Below are positions 10,904 through 13,330 of a stretch of 64,000 nt of DNA, one piece after another. Both the position numbers and the translations under genes were made by a program. The stretch covers positions 55,041 to 119,040 of the forward strand of contig DASRGG010000028.1 in assembly GCA_035651155.1 (NCBI GenBank), given 5' to 3'. Within the stretch, counting starts at the first letter, position 1. Each line of letters opens with the position of its first letter. This DNA comes from Candidatus Limnocylindria bacterium. Lineage in GTDB: Bacteria; Chloroflexota; Limnocylindria; P2-11E. The notes under the pieces are model-generated. The model had not been told where the DNA came from, did not search any database, and worked only from the letters and a program-made list of their open reading frames with translations.

Positions 10904-11923
10904 CTAGCGTGACGCCGCGAGCGCGATCACGTTCGCCGCCGGGACCGGCCCCTCCGACGTCATGACCGCGCGCGTCGAGCGCTCGCTCGCGAAGCGCGTC
11001 TCGTCGGCCATGGTCACCGGTCCGTCGAGCGGCCGGACCGCGCCCCACTCCGCGTGGAGCGCGACCGACGACGGCATCGGGATCGCGACCGCGCCGGCCG
11101 CCGCGAACACGAAGAGTCGCGCGGAGGCGGTGTGGATCGCGGCGCGCGCGCTCGCGAGATCGCGGAACGGCGCGAAGAGCGACAGTGGGAGCTGGGCCGA
11201 TCCGAATCCGAGGAGACACAGCACCGTGGGCAGGTCCGTCTGCGACGGCGCGCCGTGCGCGGTCGTGGCGTCGCCGAACACCGCGCGCAGACCCGCCGCC
11301 GGAACGGCGCCCGCAACGACGGCGGCGACCCCACACGCGTGCGCGCGCGCGATGGCCTCCGCGCCGCTGCGGCCGCCGGCCACGAGGATGCGGCCGCGCT
11401 GGGTCACGTCGACGCGCGACGGCACGATCTCCTCGCCAGCCGTCCCCACCGCGAGCGCGAGCTCCCCGATGGCGTCAGGACCGAACGCCGCGACGGCCTG
11501 CAGGCACCACGCGCTCCCTTCGACGGTGACCGTCGACTCGGTCGACTCGGTCACGCGGCCATCGAGCGTCGAGCGCACCGTCCAGCGGTCGACGATCGGC
11601 GCGATCTCGATGTCGCCGTCGCCACGCACGTGCGCGATGCGGCCATCGATGGGCGAGCTCACCGCGCGCGCGAAGCGCCGGCCGGTGCGCGCGACGACCA
11701 TCCCCTTCTTCACCTCCGCGCCCACGCTCACCCGCATGACGCGACCCAGGTCCCGTGGCGCGACGCCGATGTGCCGCGCGCCGGCCACGCGCACCGGCGC
11801 TCCGTACGTCGTGCCGGTGGCGATGACGTCGCCCGCGCGCACCTGCTGACCGAGGGGCGCGCGCTCGGACACGCCGACCGGCAGGTCGTGAGCGGCCTTC
11901 CATTCGTCGTAGCGCCAGGTCAC
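10904..11923 (-). CDS. Conserved hypothetical protein (gene X); N-terminal barrel-like region, then a Gly/Ala-rich region
   Basis: Only the last 339 aa of ORF 10904..13144 have protein-like composition (VTWRYDEWKAAHDLPVGVSERAPLGQQVRAGDVIATG...). The GTG at 11923 overlaps the stop of the upstream gene (GTGA). The upstream 400 aa of that ORF are R-rich frame noise overlapping gene Y. Confidence 0.5.
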   Translation of the reverse strand: MTWRYDEWKAAHDLPVGVSERAPLGQQVRAGDVIATGTTYGAPVRVAGARHIGVAPRDLGRVMRVSVGAEVKKGMVVARTGRRFARAVSSPIDGRIAHVRGDGDIEIAPIVDRWTVRSTLDGRVTESTESTVTVEGSAWCLQAVAAFGPDAIGELALAVGTAGEEIVPSRVDVTQRGRILVAGGRSGAEAIARAHACGVAAVVAGAVPAAGLRAVFGDATTAHGAPSQTDLPTVLCLLGFGSAQLPLSLFAPFRDLASARAAIHTASARLFVFAAAGAVAIPMPSSVALHAEWGAVRPLDGPVTMADETRFASERSTRAVMTSEGPVPAANVIALAASR

Positions 11924-13330
11924 GCCGGCTCCGATGGCAGCACGTCGAGCGCGGTGTACCAGCGCGCGAGGGCCGGGATGCGCTCCGCGTCGCGCGGCGG
12001 AAGCGCGAGCGGCCGGCCCCGCGCGTCGATGACGACGCCGAGCGCGAGCCCGCTCGCCGACGGGCGCTCCGCGGAGGGCGCGATGCGCAGCTCGACCGCG
12101 CCGCGCGTGGGTACGAGGAAGAACGCGCCACGCGCGACGCGCTCTTCGATCGTGCCGCTCGCGTCGATCACCGTCACGCTCGCGGAGCGGCGCGGCCACA
12201 TCGCCGCGATCATCGCGAGCGGCTCGACCGCCGAGAGGACCTCGCTCCCGCCGCGCGAGGCGATCGCGCCGGCCGCGACGAGGGCGTCGGGACGCTCGCG
12301 CAGCACGACGTGCATGCTCTCGGGCGCGAGCGCGTCGACCGCGGCGAGCACGGTCTGCTGCGCGCGCGGGAATCGCGCGAGATCGCCGGTGCAGACGATG
12401 TGCTGGGCGGCGCGGAGCGGGGCCGTCGCCACACCCGCGCGCTCCGCCTCGGCGAGGACGTGCGCGAGGGACTCTCGGGCGAGCGCGAGCTCGAGCGCGA
12501 GCGTGGTGGGGTTCGCCGCGACGGCATCGGGCCAGCGGGCACGGTTGAAGATACGATCGAGGAGCGCCGGGCCGTCGATCGCGCGCGGCATCCAGCGCCG
12601 GACGCGCTCGATGCCGGCCCGCGCGACCACGCGGTCCGCGCTGACGCCGAGGCCGACGTGCGCGTGCAGCCCGATGGTCGGCGCTCCGGCGGTCGCGAGC
12701 GCGAGCGACGAGGTCTGGCCGCTCGCGTCGACGACGAGCGTGGACCGGCCCGTAGCGGCGGCGAGCGCGCGCGCCGCGGACTCGATCGCCTCGTCGCGCA
12801 ACACGAGCTCGCCGTGGCTCCGCCGCATGCCGCGCAGCCGCGACACGATCGCGTCGCGCGCCTGGGTCGAGCCCGCCTCGGGCACCGTCTCGAGCGTCAG
12901 TCCCGCGAGGGCCGGATCGAGACGCGACCGCATCCGCTCGTCCGCCGCGACGAGCACGAGCGGCGCGGGCCGGCGCGACGCGCAGCCGAGGCGCAGCGCT
13001 TCGGCGAGATCGGTCATGCGGTCGGCGTCCTGCGCCGAGCCGATGAACAGCACGGCGTCGGGGCGCGCTTCCCGCAGCGCGGTCGCGCGCTCCACGAGCG
13101 TCACGCGCGCGTCGCCGCGGAGCGTGAGCACCGGATCGACGCACGCGGCGAGCGCGATCGCGCGCGCGGCGGCGAGGTCGGGCTGCGCGCGACCGACGAG
13201 GAGCGCCACCCGGAGCGGTTCGCCGAGGCCGACCCGCAGGTCGGGGAGGTCCGCGCCCGGACCGACGCGACCGACGCTCGTCTCGTGGACGACGTCGACC
13301 GTGGGCGCGAGTCCGGGCGCCGAGGTCAAG
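11920..13330 (-). CDS. Conserved hypothetical protein (gene Y), about 469 aa, with repeated xVxDASGxT motifs
   Basis: Protein-like part of ORF 11920..13860. The TTG at 13330 overlaps the amidotransferase stop (TTGA). It contains STLVVDASGQTSSLALATAG and SVTVIDASGTIEERV about 190 aa apart, and AAQHIVCTGDLARF. I could not assign a family. Confidence 0.45.

What the first reader, a model, noticed from the sequence alone, without database searches (positions are those of the whole stretch)
10904..13330. Uncharacterized two-gene pair (about 469 aa and about 339 aa) embedded between the amidotransferase-epimerase-mutase genes and the tsaEBD-rimI genes
Two overlapping-frame ORFs resolve into two consecutive genes joined by a GTGA overlap at 11920..11923. 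The upstream one starts at a TTG that overlaps the amidotransferase stop. Gene Y carries two copies of a xVxDASGxT motif about 190 aa apart (TLVVDASGQTSS and VTVIDASGTIEE) and a VCTGDL segment. These are suggestive of a duplicated phosphate-binding (DxGxT) module. Gene X has an N-terminal beta-barrel-like G/V-rich segment (VKKGMVVARTGRRFARAVSSPIDGRIAHVRGDGDIEI) followed by a Gly/Ala-rich region. I could not assign either gene to a known family. Their tight coupling suggests a two-component enzyme.
Basis: seen in the sequence. Interest (0 to 1): 0.5.

Follow-up and report, generated by a model that had tools for sequence, protein, structure and literature searches.

The report
Degenerate GlmL-like protein with conserved partner
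The two genes are real and coupled: one is a very divergent relative of the GlmL/MutL actin-fold ATPases that has lost most of its ATP-binding loops, and the other belongs to an unnamed family that partners such proteins in hundreds of bacterial genomes, so the pair looks like a stripped-down remnant of a widespread system nobody has characterised.

Summary
Gene Y (13329..11920, minus strand, 469 aa) starts at a TTG overlapping the amidotransferase stop. Gene X (11923..10904, 339 aa) is joined to it by a GTGA overlap. Both are coding (GC3 0.94 and 0.93; dN/dS 0.30 and 0.36).

Y can be assigned to a family. It is a divergent GlmL/MutL (PF13941) ASKHA-fold protein with a flavodoxin-like insert and a C-terminal beta domain. 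The second lies in the beta domain. The true phosphate-1 loop and the glycine-rich loops are lost, so Y is probably not an ATPase.

X combines a barrel-sandwich hybrid, a swivelling beta/beta/alpha domain and a small beta domain. Its family has no Pfam or NCBIfam model. That family lies directly downstream of a 600-aa GlmL-like ATPase in many phyla and is fused to one in a 995-aa protein. It usually travels with a small protein and a four-gene membrane block (DUF6754 plus three), often next to glycine-cleavage genes.

Related Chloroflexota carry the full system at the same place, upstream of tsaE. This lineage keeps only Y and X at this locus. The function is unknown. A link to methylmalonyl-CoA mutase is possible but weakly supported.

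The parts
11920..13329 (-). Gene Y, 469 aa: a divergent GlmL/MutL-family (ASKHA-fold) protein
   Evidence: ORF and sequence. GC3 is 0.94. 54 of 95 orthologues hit PF13941. hhalign against canonical 600-aa MutL gives probability 99.7, E 8e-27. The AF2 model has pLDDT 91.9. Foldseek hits are Hsp70, MreB, PilM and acetone carboxylase.
13276..13302 (-). Degenerate ASKHA phosphate-1 position (residues 10-18, TVDVVHETS), followed by a 47-aa deletion relative to canonical relatives
   Evidence: Alignment with canonical MutL, where this position reads ATDCGSTTTK. H15 and E16 are conserved within the Y family.
12820..13212 (-). Flavodoxin-like (Rossmann-type) insert domain of Y, residues about 40-170
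12706..12741 (-). TLVVDASGQTSS (residues 197-208): remnant of the ASKHA phosphate-2 motif
   Evidence: Aligns with GVDIGGATTDV of canonical MutL. D201 and G204 are invariant in the Y family.
12364..12396 (-). VCTGDLARFPR (residues 312-322): remnant of the ASKHA adenosine motif
   Evidence: Aligns with GSGGVLSHAPR. G315, P321 and R322 are invariant.
11923..12228 (-). C-terminal beta domain plus helix of Y (residues 368-469).
   Evidence: All-beta in the model. Aligns with the C-terminal extension of the 600-aa MutL subfamily (GLIFDxRGRP...LxxW).
10904..11923 (-). Gene X, 339 aa: a member of an unannotated family that partners GlmL-like proteins
   Evidence: ORF. GC3 is 0.93. The AF2 model has pLDDT 88.7. 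hhalign against the canonical X-like family gives probability 99.9, E 2e-31. No curated family matches.
11444..11923 (-). Barrel-sandwich hybrid region of X (residues about 1-160).
11150..11431 (-). Swivelling beta/beta/alpha domain of X (residues about 165-258)
10907..11149 (-). C-terminal small beta domain of X (residues about 259-339)
   Evidence: Secondary structure of the model. Weak KOW hits in canonical relatives.
13326..14015 (-). Peptidase-C26 / class-I glutamine amidotransferase, translationally coupled to Y (TTGA overlap)
   Evidence: Pfam PF07722, E 1e-43. The same overlap with Y occurs in L001, L002, L003 and L091.
10601..10897 (-). Conserved 98-aa membrane protein directly downstream of X. 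It is not related to the s110 protein of canonical clusters.
   Evidence: Present in L001, L003 and L091. dN/dS is 0.31. The s110 HMM gives E 0.5.

Best explanation
Y and X are the two soluble core subunits of a widespread, uncharacterised bacterial module. The module pairs a GlmL/MutL-type ASKHA-fold protein with a partner built from a barrel-sandwich hybrid, a swivelling beta/beta/alpha domain and a small beta domain. In most lineages the ASKHA subunit is about 600 aa with intact ATP-binding loops. There the pair is encoded with a small protein (s110), a membrane-anchored protein (p166) and one to three copies of a four-gene membrane block (DUF6754 plus three unnamed membrane proteins).

Related Chloroflexota carry the whole system between alr and tsaE. 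In the lineage of this window only Y and X remain at that position. Y has shrunk to 469 aa and has lost the phosphate-1 loop, an adjacent 47-aa segment and the glycine-rich loops.

Shown: homology, domain architecture, conserved pairing and fusion, absence of the membrane genes from this locus, erosion of the ATP-site motifs, and purifying selection.

Inferred: the two proteins form a stable heteromer, probably through the C-terminal beta domain of Y that is specific to X-associated GlmL proteins. The heteromer would act without ATP hydrolysis, as a scaffold, regulator or chaperone-like accessory factor rather than as an enzyme. Its client is unknown.
For: - **Y homology:** 54 of 95 orthologues match PF13941. 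The Y profile against the canonical 600-aa MutL profile gives probability 99.7%, E 8e-27 over 416 columns. Canonical members match PF13941 at 1e-126 and GlmL NCBIfam models below cut-off.
- **X homology and fold:** probability 99.9%, E 2e-31 to the canonical X-like family. The fold is a barrel-sandwich hybrid plus a swivelling domain.
- **Pairing:** MutL lies upstream of X in 42 of 66 distant genome loci with enough upstream sequence. A 995-aa MutL-X fusion was seen on at least 7 contigs. Start and stop codons overlap in all window-clade loci.
- **Evolutionary series at one position upstream of tsaE:** L090 and L089 have the s110 protein, DUF6754, the 206-, 287- and 214-aa proteins, MutL (551 aa) and X. 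L088 and the P0432 contig have only Y' (579 or 541 aa) and X'. The window clade has the amidotransferase, Y (469 aa), X and the 98-aa membrane protein.
- **Local absence of the other components:** no homologue of the membrane block, s110 or p166 occurs in the 64-kb window or in L001-L003.
- **Motif erosion:** ATDCGSTTTK becomes TVDVVHETS with a 47-aa deletion. GVDIGGATTDV becomes VVDASGQTSSL. GSGGVLSHAPR becomes CTGDLARFPR. STSSAGGG and LLSGGVDGG are lost.
- **Selection:** dN/dS is 0.30 for Y and 0.36 for X, against 0.09-0.11 for tsaB, tsaD and the epimerase. The Y alignment has 63 invariant columns and the X alignment 56.
Against: - No direct evidence of a physical complex; a multimer prediction could not be run.
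- Only 64 kb of the genome is visible, so the membrane block may simply lie elsewhere and Y-X may still work with it.
- Loss of canonical loops does not prove loss of nucleotide binding. D201, G204, G315, P321 and R322 stay invariant. H15 is nearly invariant and E16 is invariant at the old phosphate-1 site, and the two could form a new ligand site.
- The L090-type protein, which keeps the membrane block, also has an altered phosphate-2 motif (VDVGARYAS). Motif erosion and loss of the block are therefore not strictly linked.
- The function of the canonical system is itself unknown, so 'remnant of' describes ancestry, not activity.
Confidence: 0.55

Rival explanations
1. Y-X is an accessory, chaperone or reactivating factor for the adjacent coenzyme-B12-dependent methylmalonyl-CoA mutase. 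This would parallel the role proposed for GlmL with glutamate mutase and the two-subunit diol dehydratase reactivase DdrAB.
For: - GlmL-family proteins with names are those next to B12 mutases: NF040745 is the GlmL accessory protein and NF040744 is the ornithine-degradation Or-4 protein. PMC4682846 calls MutL/GlmL a chaperone for glutamate mutase reactivation, citing work on diol dehydratase.
- In this clade the pair lies 1.1 kb downstream of the mutase large subunit and the epimerase, in one tightly packed block.
- One distant locus, L056, also has the mutase and epimerase near X.
Against: - Orthologous pairs in sister lineages (L088, L089, L090, the P0432 contig) are not next to any mutase. 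The constant anchor is tsaE.
- Only 1 of 80 distant loci has a mutase nearby.
- Known reactivases need ATP, and Y's ATP site is eroded.
- The flavodoxin-like and swivelling-domain similarities are generic fold matches with 10-17% identity.
- The B12-binding subunit in the window sits 21 kb away, next to a second mutase gene.
Confidence: 0.12
2. The C26 amidotransferase, Y and X form a three-component enzyme, such as an amide- or gamma-glutamyl-processing complex. The amidotransferase would supply or remove an amide group, and Y-X would bind the substrate.
For: - The amidotransferase stop and the Y start overlap (TTGA) in the window. The equivalent overlap is present in L001, L002, L003 and L091.
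- The amidotransferase keeps its GICRG nucleophile motif and its WHPE motif. Its dN/dS of 0.25 is similar to that of Y and X.
- A C26 amidotransferase fragment (40% identity, E about 1e-6) also lies upstream of the MutL-X clusters in two Bacillota genomes, next to an S58 peptidase.
Against: - Sister Chloroflexota lineages have the pair without any amidotransferase.
- Only 2 of 80 distant loci show one.
- No ATP-dependent ligase chemistry can be expected from the eroded site.
- X has no family-wide conserved Cys, His, Lys or Asp.
Confidence: 0.1
3. Y-X acts with the downstream tsaE-tsaB-rimI-tsaD genes in tRNA t6A modification or ribosomal-protein acetylation.
For: The pair, or the full system, lies directly or closely upstream of tsaE-tsaB-rimI-tsaD in the window clade, L088, the P0432 contig, L089 and L090, and in three Bacillota loci. 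TsaB and TsaD are also ASKHA-fold proteins.
Against: - Only 3 of 80 distant loci, all Bacillota, have tsaE nearby.
- The tsaEBD-rimI block is a housekeeping block that also neighbours alr, ksgA and ispE.
- From general knowledge, the bacterial t6A pathway is complete with TsaC, TsaD, TsaB and TsaE.
- The one X-TsaE 'fusion' lies on a contig with other fragmented genes and is probably an assembly error.
Confidence: 0.07
4. The pair is a decaying relic with no remaining function.
For: The membrane partners are absent from the locus and the ATP motifs are eroded. The pair evolves about three times faster than the housekeeping neighbours.
Against: - Both reading frames are intact in every relative examined.
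- dN/dS is 0.30 and 0.36, well below 1.
- There are 63 and 56 invariant columns across sequences down to about 50-60% identity.
- Gene overlaps are conserved, and both AF2 models are confident.
Confidence: 0.04

Closest known systems
GlmL / MutL, the methylaspartate (glutamate) mutase accessory protein (Pfam PF13941, TIGR01319, NF040745), and the GlmL-related ornithine-degradation protein Or-4 (NF040744)
   Same: Homologous to Y. It shares the ASKHA fold with a flavodoxin-like insert. The remnants of the phosphate-2 and adenosine motifs align, and the RW(V/I)P...NRxxxxRP region is shared.
   Different: - Y does not reach any curated threshold on its own.
- Y lacks the phosphate-1 loop and the glycine-rich loops.
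- Y carries the C-terminal beta domain typical of the X-associated 600-aa subfamily, which GlmL proper (about 460 aa) lacks.
- Y is not next to glmS/glmE or the ornithine aminomutase genes.
- GlmL's own function is only inferred by analogy.
The X-associated 600-aa GlmL-like ATPase plus X-like partner, with s110, p166, DUF6754 (PF20539) and three unnamed membrane proteins. This is an uncharacterised gene cluster found here in many phyla.
   Same: Y and X are clear homologues of its two soluble core proteins, in the same gene order and with the same tight coupling. Relatives in Chloroflexota hold the full cluster at the same chromosomal position.
   Different: The window lineage lacks s110, p166 and the membrane block at this locus. 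Y is about 130-150 aa shorter with eroded ATP motifs. X lacks the family's TEGFG and ATQIRAG motifs (LLGFG and TASARLF instead).
Diol / glycerol dehydratase reactivase (DdrA-DdrB, GdrA-GdrB)
   Different: There is no detectable sequence homology. In DdrA the swivelling domain is part of the ATPase chain, whereas here it is on the partner. There is no DdrB-like small subunit. Across relatives there is no consistent association with a B12 enzyme.
RraA-like proteins and the phosphohistidine (mobile) domains of PEP-utilising enzymes
   Different: Identity is 10-17%. X has no conserved phospho-accepting histidine or RraA-type active-site residues. X also has two further domains.
N-terminal barrel-sandwich hybrid domains of RnfC and NqrA, and biotinyl/lipoyl carrier domains
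   Same: Fold and weak sequence similarity to the N-terminal region of X.
   Different: No conserved lysine for lipoyl or biotinyl attachment. No flavin, NADH or iron-sulfur modules.

Membership tests
GlmL/MutL family (PF13941 / TIGR01319) | Significant match to the family profile | tested here: met
   The window Y alone gives no hit at E<=1. However, 54 of 95 orthologues hit PF13941 (best 1.7e-12). The Y-family profile matches PF13941-positive 600-aa proteins at probability 99.7%, E 8e-27.
GlmL/MutL family (PF13941 / TIGR01319) | ASKHA (actin/Hsp70/sugar-kinase) fold with an inserted flavodoxin-like domain | tested here: met
GlmL/MutL family (PF13941 / TIGR01319) | Intact ATP-binding loops: phosphate-1 DxGSTxTK, phosphate-2 DIGGxTTD, adenosine GSGG | tested here: not met
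   Phosphate-1 is replaced by TVDVVHETS and followed by a 47-aa deletion. Phosphate-2 is reduced to DASGQT. The adenosine motif is reduced to CTGD.
GlmL proper (NF040745 equivalog) or Or-4 (NF040744) | Score above the curated cut-off and location beside glutamate mutase or ornithine aminomutase genes | tested here: not met
   No NCBIfam hit for Y. Even canonical 600-aa relatives score 228 against a cut-off of 475, and 212 against 600. The neighbours are methylmalonyl-CoA mutase, an epimerase and an amidotransferase.
X-associated GlmL-like module (uncharacterised) | GlmL-like protein with the C-terminal beta domain (GxxxDxRGRP...W), directly followed by an X-family gene | tested here: met
   Alignment and hhalign. 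GTGA overlap.
X-associated GlmL-like module (uncharacterised) | Accompanying s110, p166 and the DUF6754 / M232 / M293 / M311 membrane block | tested here: not met
   HMMs built from 18-35 members each find nothing in the window or in L001-L003 at E<=10. The rest of the genome could not be searched.
Diol dehydratase reactivase (DdrAB) | Sequence or whole-chain structural homology to DdrA, a DdrB-like small subunit, and ATP-dependent action on a B12 enzyme | tested here: not met
Biotinyl/lipoyl carrier proteins | Conserved modifiable lysine at the tip of the hairpin | tested here: not met
   No invariant or near-invariant lysine in the X alignments. Pfam scores are below threshold.
PEP-utilising enzyme mobile domain | Conserved phospho-accepting histidine in the swivelling domain | tested here: not met
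   No histidine is conserved across the wider X family. The match is at fold level only.
Anti-phage defence systems (PADLOC) | Match to any defence-system model | tested here: not met
   No hits for Y, X or the eight proteins of a canonical cluster.

The most novel reading that the evidence does not exclude
The GlmL-like ATPase, its X partner, s110, p166 and the DUF6754 four-gene membrane block together form a previously undescribed ATP-driven membrane-associated machine. It is present in at least several hundred species across more than a dozen phyla, and it is functionally tied to glycine or amino-acid metabolism: the gcvT-H-PA-PB operon lies directly upstream in 19 of 80 loci and 4.7 kb downstream in this window. 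The Limnocylindria lineage would then have kept an ATPase-dead soluble core that took on a new role, possibly with the coupled C26 amidohydrolase. This would also mean that most GlmL-family proteins are not B12-mutase chaperones.
Probability: 0.35. Interest if true: 0.75.

Novelty: new variant of a known kind. Interest (0 to 1): 0.55.

Why it matters
GlmL/MutL proteins have been regarded, without direct proof, as helpers of B12-dependent amino-acid mutases. Three results here change that picture.

- A large, phylogenetically broad branch of the family is instead wired to an unnamed partner protein and to a set of unstudied membrane proteins.
- The partner family has no database model at all.
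- One soil Chloroflexota lineage retains only a reduced, probably ATP-independent version of the core pair.

This defines a testable two-protein complex. It gives a natural series from the full system to the reduced form for working out which parts matter. It also flags an uncharacterised conserved system found in at least 591 genome hits among 185,579 representative species.

Tried and rejected
- **Curated family libraries.** Pfam and NCBIfam on the window proteins gave nothing for Y and only sub-threshold barrel-hybrid hits for X.
- **Solved structures by sequence.** PDB profile searches with the Y, X, canonical MutL, canonical X, DUF6754 and M293 profiles found no relative. The only hit was an FN3 domain at the DUF6754 N-terminus.
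- **AlphaFold database.** The afdb50 fold library was not available.
- **Defence systems.** PADLOC gave no hits.
- **Literature.** No papers mention DUF6754 or PF13941. 'GlmL' returned only one relevant paper, which calls it a chaperone by analogy.
- **X-TsaE fusion.** I rejected the 557-aa P0513 as evidence of a functional link. Its contig L089 carries fragmented tsaD and rimI genes, so a frameshift error is likely.
- **98-aa downstream protein.** It was tested as a possible s110 homologue and is not one (E 0.5).
- **First genome scan.** The broad alignment A3 failed for lack of conserved stretches. The scan was repeated with the tighter alignment A4.
- **Metagenome scan.** A scan with the Chloroflexota DUF6754 protein, meant to show whether window-type genomes carry the membrane block elsewhere, returned one short contig and was uninformative.
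- **Promoters and terminators.** The scan found nothing above chance inside the mutase-to-tsaD block.
- **Internal duplication in Y.** I considered and rejected this. The second DASGT motif is in a different, all-beta domain.
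Full report
**1. The observation**

The window is about 73% G+C, and the genes in question lie on the minus strand. Gene Y runs from a TTG at 13329 to a TGA at 11922..11920 and encodes 469 aa. Its start overlaps the TGA stop (13328..13326) of the upstream gene. Gene X starts at the GTG at 11923..11921, giving the GTGA overlap at 11920..11923, and ends at a TAG at 10906..10904, encoding 339 aa. Only the outer coordinate (13330) is off by one base.

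Third-position G+C is 0.94 for Y and 0.93 for X. The high-GC3 frame switches exactly at the junction. Homology searches found 322 relatives of Y and 433 of X, essentially all full length. Those that carry a source organism name are labelled Candidatus Limnocylindria or Chloroflexota. The predicted N-terminus of Y is conserved in the family alignment.

Compared with a relative that shares 76% (Y) and 68% (X) amino-acid identity, dN/dS is 0.30 for Y and 0.36 for X. The upstream amidotransferase gives 0.25, the downstream 98-aa protein 0.31, and tsaB, tsaD and the epimerase give 0.09-0.11. Both genes are therefore real and under purifying selection, but they evolve about three times faster than their housekeeping neighbours. 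Extreme GC3 may distort the absolute values; the comparison between genes is what matters.

**2. Neighbours**

On the minus strand the order is:

- methylmalonyl-CoA mutase large subunit (14439..16046, 535 aa, no B12-binding domain)
- a glyoxalase-fold epimerase
- a peptidase-C26 / class-I glutamine amidotransferase (13326..14015)
- Y
- X
- a 98-aa membrane protein (10601..10897)
- tsaE, tsaB, rimI, tsaD

The genes overlap or are separated by about 10 bases or less. A consensus scan found no promoter and only one chance-level terminator-like site inside the block.

**3. What Y is**

Y alone matches no Pfam or NCBIfam model. However, 54 of 95 aligned orthologues match PF13941, 'MutL', the GlmL glutamate-mutase accessory family.

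Y is thus an ASKHA protein with an inserted flavodoxin-like domain and a C-terminal all-beta domain followed by a helix (residues 368-469).

**4. What X is**

X has only sub-threshold matches to barrel-sandwich hybrid models: Biotin_lipoyl_2, RnfC_N and NQRA_N. Its model is good (pLDDT 88.7).

No lysine, histidine or cysteine is conserved across the wider family. The conserved positions are mostly glycines.

**5. The wider family of X and its partner**

An exhaustive profile search with the X alignment found 1,099 cluster representatives at E<=1e-3. Only 17 scored at or below 1e-30; apart from one 351-aa protein (P0257) of the second Chloroflexota clade, these are the Limnocylindria type. The rest form a large family of proteins of about 375 aa (some about 450 aa) with the motifs QGIFGIGGE, TEGFG, ATQIRAG and VPRANxE.

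One hit, P0312 (995 aa), is a fusion of a complete MutL domain (PF13941, E 2.8e-128, residues 12-485) with an X-like region (640-888). This fusion cluster has 12 members, and the 995-aa protein was seen on at least 7 contigs.

They come from UBP9, WOR-3, Poribacteria, Eisenbacteria, Zixibacteria, Fermentibacteria, Eremiobacterota, Dormibacterota, Bacillota, Proteobacteria, Planctomycetota and other phyla.

I analysed the 80 loci fetched, using crude ORF calls and HMMs built in-session. A 600-aa MutL gene lies upstream of X in 42 of the 66 loci that have enough upstream sequence. In most cases it is within 300 nt. In the other 24, mainly Poribacteria and WOR-3, X stands alone.

The canonical 600-aa proteins match PF13941 at 1e-126. 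They fall below the NCBIfam cut-offs for GlmL and Or-4. They keep textbook ASKHA loops: ATDCGSTTTK, GVDIGGATTD and GSGGVLSHAP.

Around the pair there is a recurrent set of genes:

- a membrane-anchored protein of about 166 aa (p166)
- a protein of about 110 aa (s110)
- one to three tandem copies of a four-gene membrane block: DUF6754 (PF20539, with an N-terminal FN3 domain) and three unnamed proteins of about 210-230, 280-293 and 214-311 aa

. None of these has a solved relative, a defence-system match or any literature that I could find.

**6. Homology of the window pair to this module**

Profile-profile comparison gives probability 99.7% (E 8e-27, 416 columns) for Y against the canonical 600-aa MutL. 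It gives probability 99.9% (E 2e-31, 268 columns) for X against the canonical X-like family.

The C-terminal beta domain of Y (GVVIDARGRPLALPPRD...LARWYTAL) corresponds to the C-terminal extension that sets the X-associated subfamily apart from GlmL proper.

The same alignment shows what Y has lost:

| Canonical motif | In Y |
|---|---|
| Phosphate-1 loop ATDCGSTTTK | TVDVVHETS, followed by a 47-aa deletion |
| STSSAGGG | absent |
| LLSGGVDGG | absent |
| Phosphate-2 GVDIGGATTDV | VVDASGQTSSL |
| Adenosine motif GSGGVLSHAPR | CTGDLARFPR |

The second DASGT motif (residues 385-396) lies in the beta domain opposite a variable stretch of the canonical proteins. It is not a phosphate loop.

**7. 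An evolutionary series at one chromosomal position**

A second clade of X-like proteins was found; those carrying a source organism name are mostly labelled Limnocylindria or Chloroflexota.

- **L090 (a 2.2-Mb contig) and L089.** The order is glmS, acpS, nnr, alr, Macro, an 83-aa s110 homologue (E 3e-11), DUF6754, 206 aa, 287 aa, 214 aa, MutL (551 aa, PF13941), X (342 aa), tsaE, tsaB, rimI, tsaD, ksgA. This is the full system.
- **L088 and a second contig (P0432).** The order is alr, Y' (579 or 541 aa), X', tsaE, tsaB, rimI, tsaD, with no membrane block.
- **The window clade (window, L001, L002, L003, L091).** The order is epimerase, amidotransferase, Y (469-473 aa), X, a 98-121-aa membrane protein, then tsaE and the rest.

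HMMs for the membrane block, s110 and p166 find nothing in the 64-kb window or in L001-L003.

The phosphate-1 loop degrades in step: VDVGSAWTK in L090, VDRGSAWTV in L088 and VDVVHETS here. The phosphate-2 motif is already altered in L090, so the correlation is not clean.

The simplest reading is that the window pair is the orthologous, reduced remnant of the full system. Relocation of the membrane genes elsewhere in the genome cannot be excluded.

**8. Function**

Nothing in the system has been characterised. I commit to the following as most likely.

Y and X form a heteromer. This is inferred from the natural fusion, the adjacency that holds across phyla, and the conserved start-stop overlaps. 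In this lineage the heteromer no longer depends on ATP hydrolysis. It would act as a scaffold, regulatory or chaperone-like factor rather than as an enzyme, because Y's ATP site is eroded and X has no catalytic-type conserved residues.

The attractive idea that Y-X serves the neighbouring B12-dependent mutase rests on three things:

- the family's association with B12 mutases, which is itself supported in the literature only by analogy
- the local synteny in this clade
- generic fold similarities

Against it, sister lineages and 79 of 80 distant loci have no mutase nearby. The only B12-binding subunit found among the window ORFs I tested sits 21 kb away, beside a second mutase gene.

A three-component complex with the coupled C26 amidotransferase is possible for this clade. 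A C26 fragment also precedes the Bacillota clusters. It is not a general feature, however.

The recurrent adjacency to tsaE-tsaB-rimI-tsaD in Chloroflexota and Bacillota is more likely old synteny among housekeeping genes than a functional link.

**9. A lead worth noting**

In 19 of the 80 distant loci, the glycine-cleavage operon (gcvT, gcvH, gcvPA, gcvPB) lies immediately upstream of p166, s110, MutL and X. These loci come from WOR-3, Eisenbacteria, Fermentibacteria, Dormibacterota and Proteobacteria-type MAGs.

In this window the same operon lies on the same strand 4.7 kb downstream of X. Shared ancestry of gene order may explain part of this. Even so, the spread across phyla and the different arrangement here suggest a link between the module and glycine or amino-acid metabolism. 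That would also fit the family's other known contexts, glutamate and ornithine mutases.

**10. Verdict**

The finding is real.

Its interpretation is partly right.

It is partly wrong. Y can be assigned to a family, there is no duplicated phosphate module, and an enzyme is unlikely.

Y is a new, degenerate variant of the GlmL/MutL family. X belongs to a family with no database model. Together they point to a widespread, unstudied multi-gene system of which this locus is a reduced form.

Noticed in passing
window 1761..6157 (minus strand): A glycine-cleavage operon lies on the same strand 4.7 kb downstream of X: gcvT 5066..6157, gcvH 4668..5066, gcvPA 3302..4783, gcvPB about 1761..3300. The same operon sits immediately upstream of the MutL-X module in 19 of 80 distant loci from several phyla.
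   Followed up: partly
window 37501..40269 (minus strand): There is a second methylmalonyl-CoA-mutase-family large subunit (about 38062..39640). Directly downstream is a 149-aa B12-binding subunit (37501..37947). Acyl-CoA dehydrogenases flank the pair. The mutase at 14439..16046 has no B12-binding subunit beside it. No MeaB-type chaperone was seen among the ORFs I tested.
   Followed up: partly
window 10601..10897 (minus strand): A conserved 98-aa protein with a basic N-terminus and two hydrophobic segments lies between X and tsaE. It is present in L001, L003 and L091, has dN/dS 0.31 and matches no family. It is unrelated to the s110 protein of canonical clusters.
   Followed up: partly
window 16749..19124 (minus strand); L001 2882..5257; L003 2339..4717: A penicillin-amidase-family gene is conserved between the propionyl-CoA carboxylase genes and the mutase gene in this clade. 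This is an odd insertion in a propionate-pathway cluster.
   Followed up: no
L063, L070, L085, L086 (for example L085 9525..17125): The four-gene membrane block (DUF6754, M232, M293, M311) is tandemly repeated two to three times after a single MutL-X pair. This suggests interchangeable or specialised membrane modules.
   Followed up: no
L047 1480..9122, L066 and L058 (Bacillota MAGs): Two tandem MutL-X pairs occur. The first X is a 453-470-aa variant with an N-terminal extension. The pairs are preceded by a C26 amidotransferase fragment and an S58 (DmpA-type) peptidase. DUF483, UDG, tsaE, tsaB and rimI follow.
   Followed up: partly
L006 546..5866: Six consecutive genes upstream of s110-MutL-X encode paralogous membrane proteins. 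They share a C-terminal motif (W-x-N-F-x-x-F-S-x-H-K-x-C-I-x-L-W) with p166, so this component has expanded locally.
   Followed up: no
L089 9001..10674: A 557-aa apparent X-TsaE fusion (P0513). The same contig has tsaD and rimI split into fragments, so this is probably an indel error in the assembly and not a real fusion.
   Followed up: yes
L011-L021, L023, L025, L041 and others (Poribacteria, WOR-3, Stahlbacteria): In 24 of 66 loci the X-like gene stands alone, with no MutL within 8 kb. In L016 the upstream gene is on the opposite strand. X may therefore also act without an adjacent GlmL-like gene, or the partner may be encoded elsewhere.
   Followed up: partly
window 23858..31158 (minus strand): A formate-dehydrogenase-type cluster: an NrfD-like membrane protein, FdhE, a molybdopterin oxidoreductase and FdhD.
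   Followed up: no
window 16073..16765 (plus strand): A 230-aa ORF with a signal-peptide-like N-terminus (ALACSC) and no Pfam match lies between the mutase and penicillin amidase genes on the opposite strand. I did not check whether it is a real gene.
   Followed up: no
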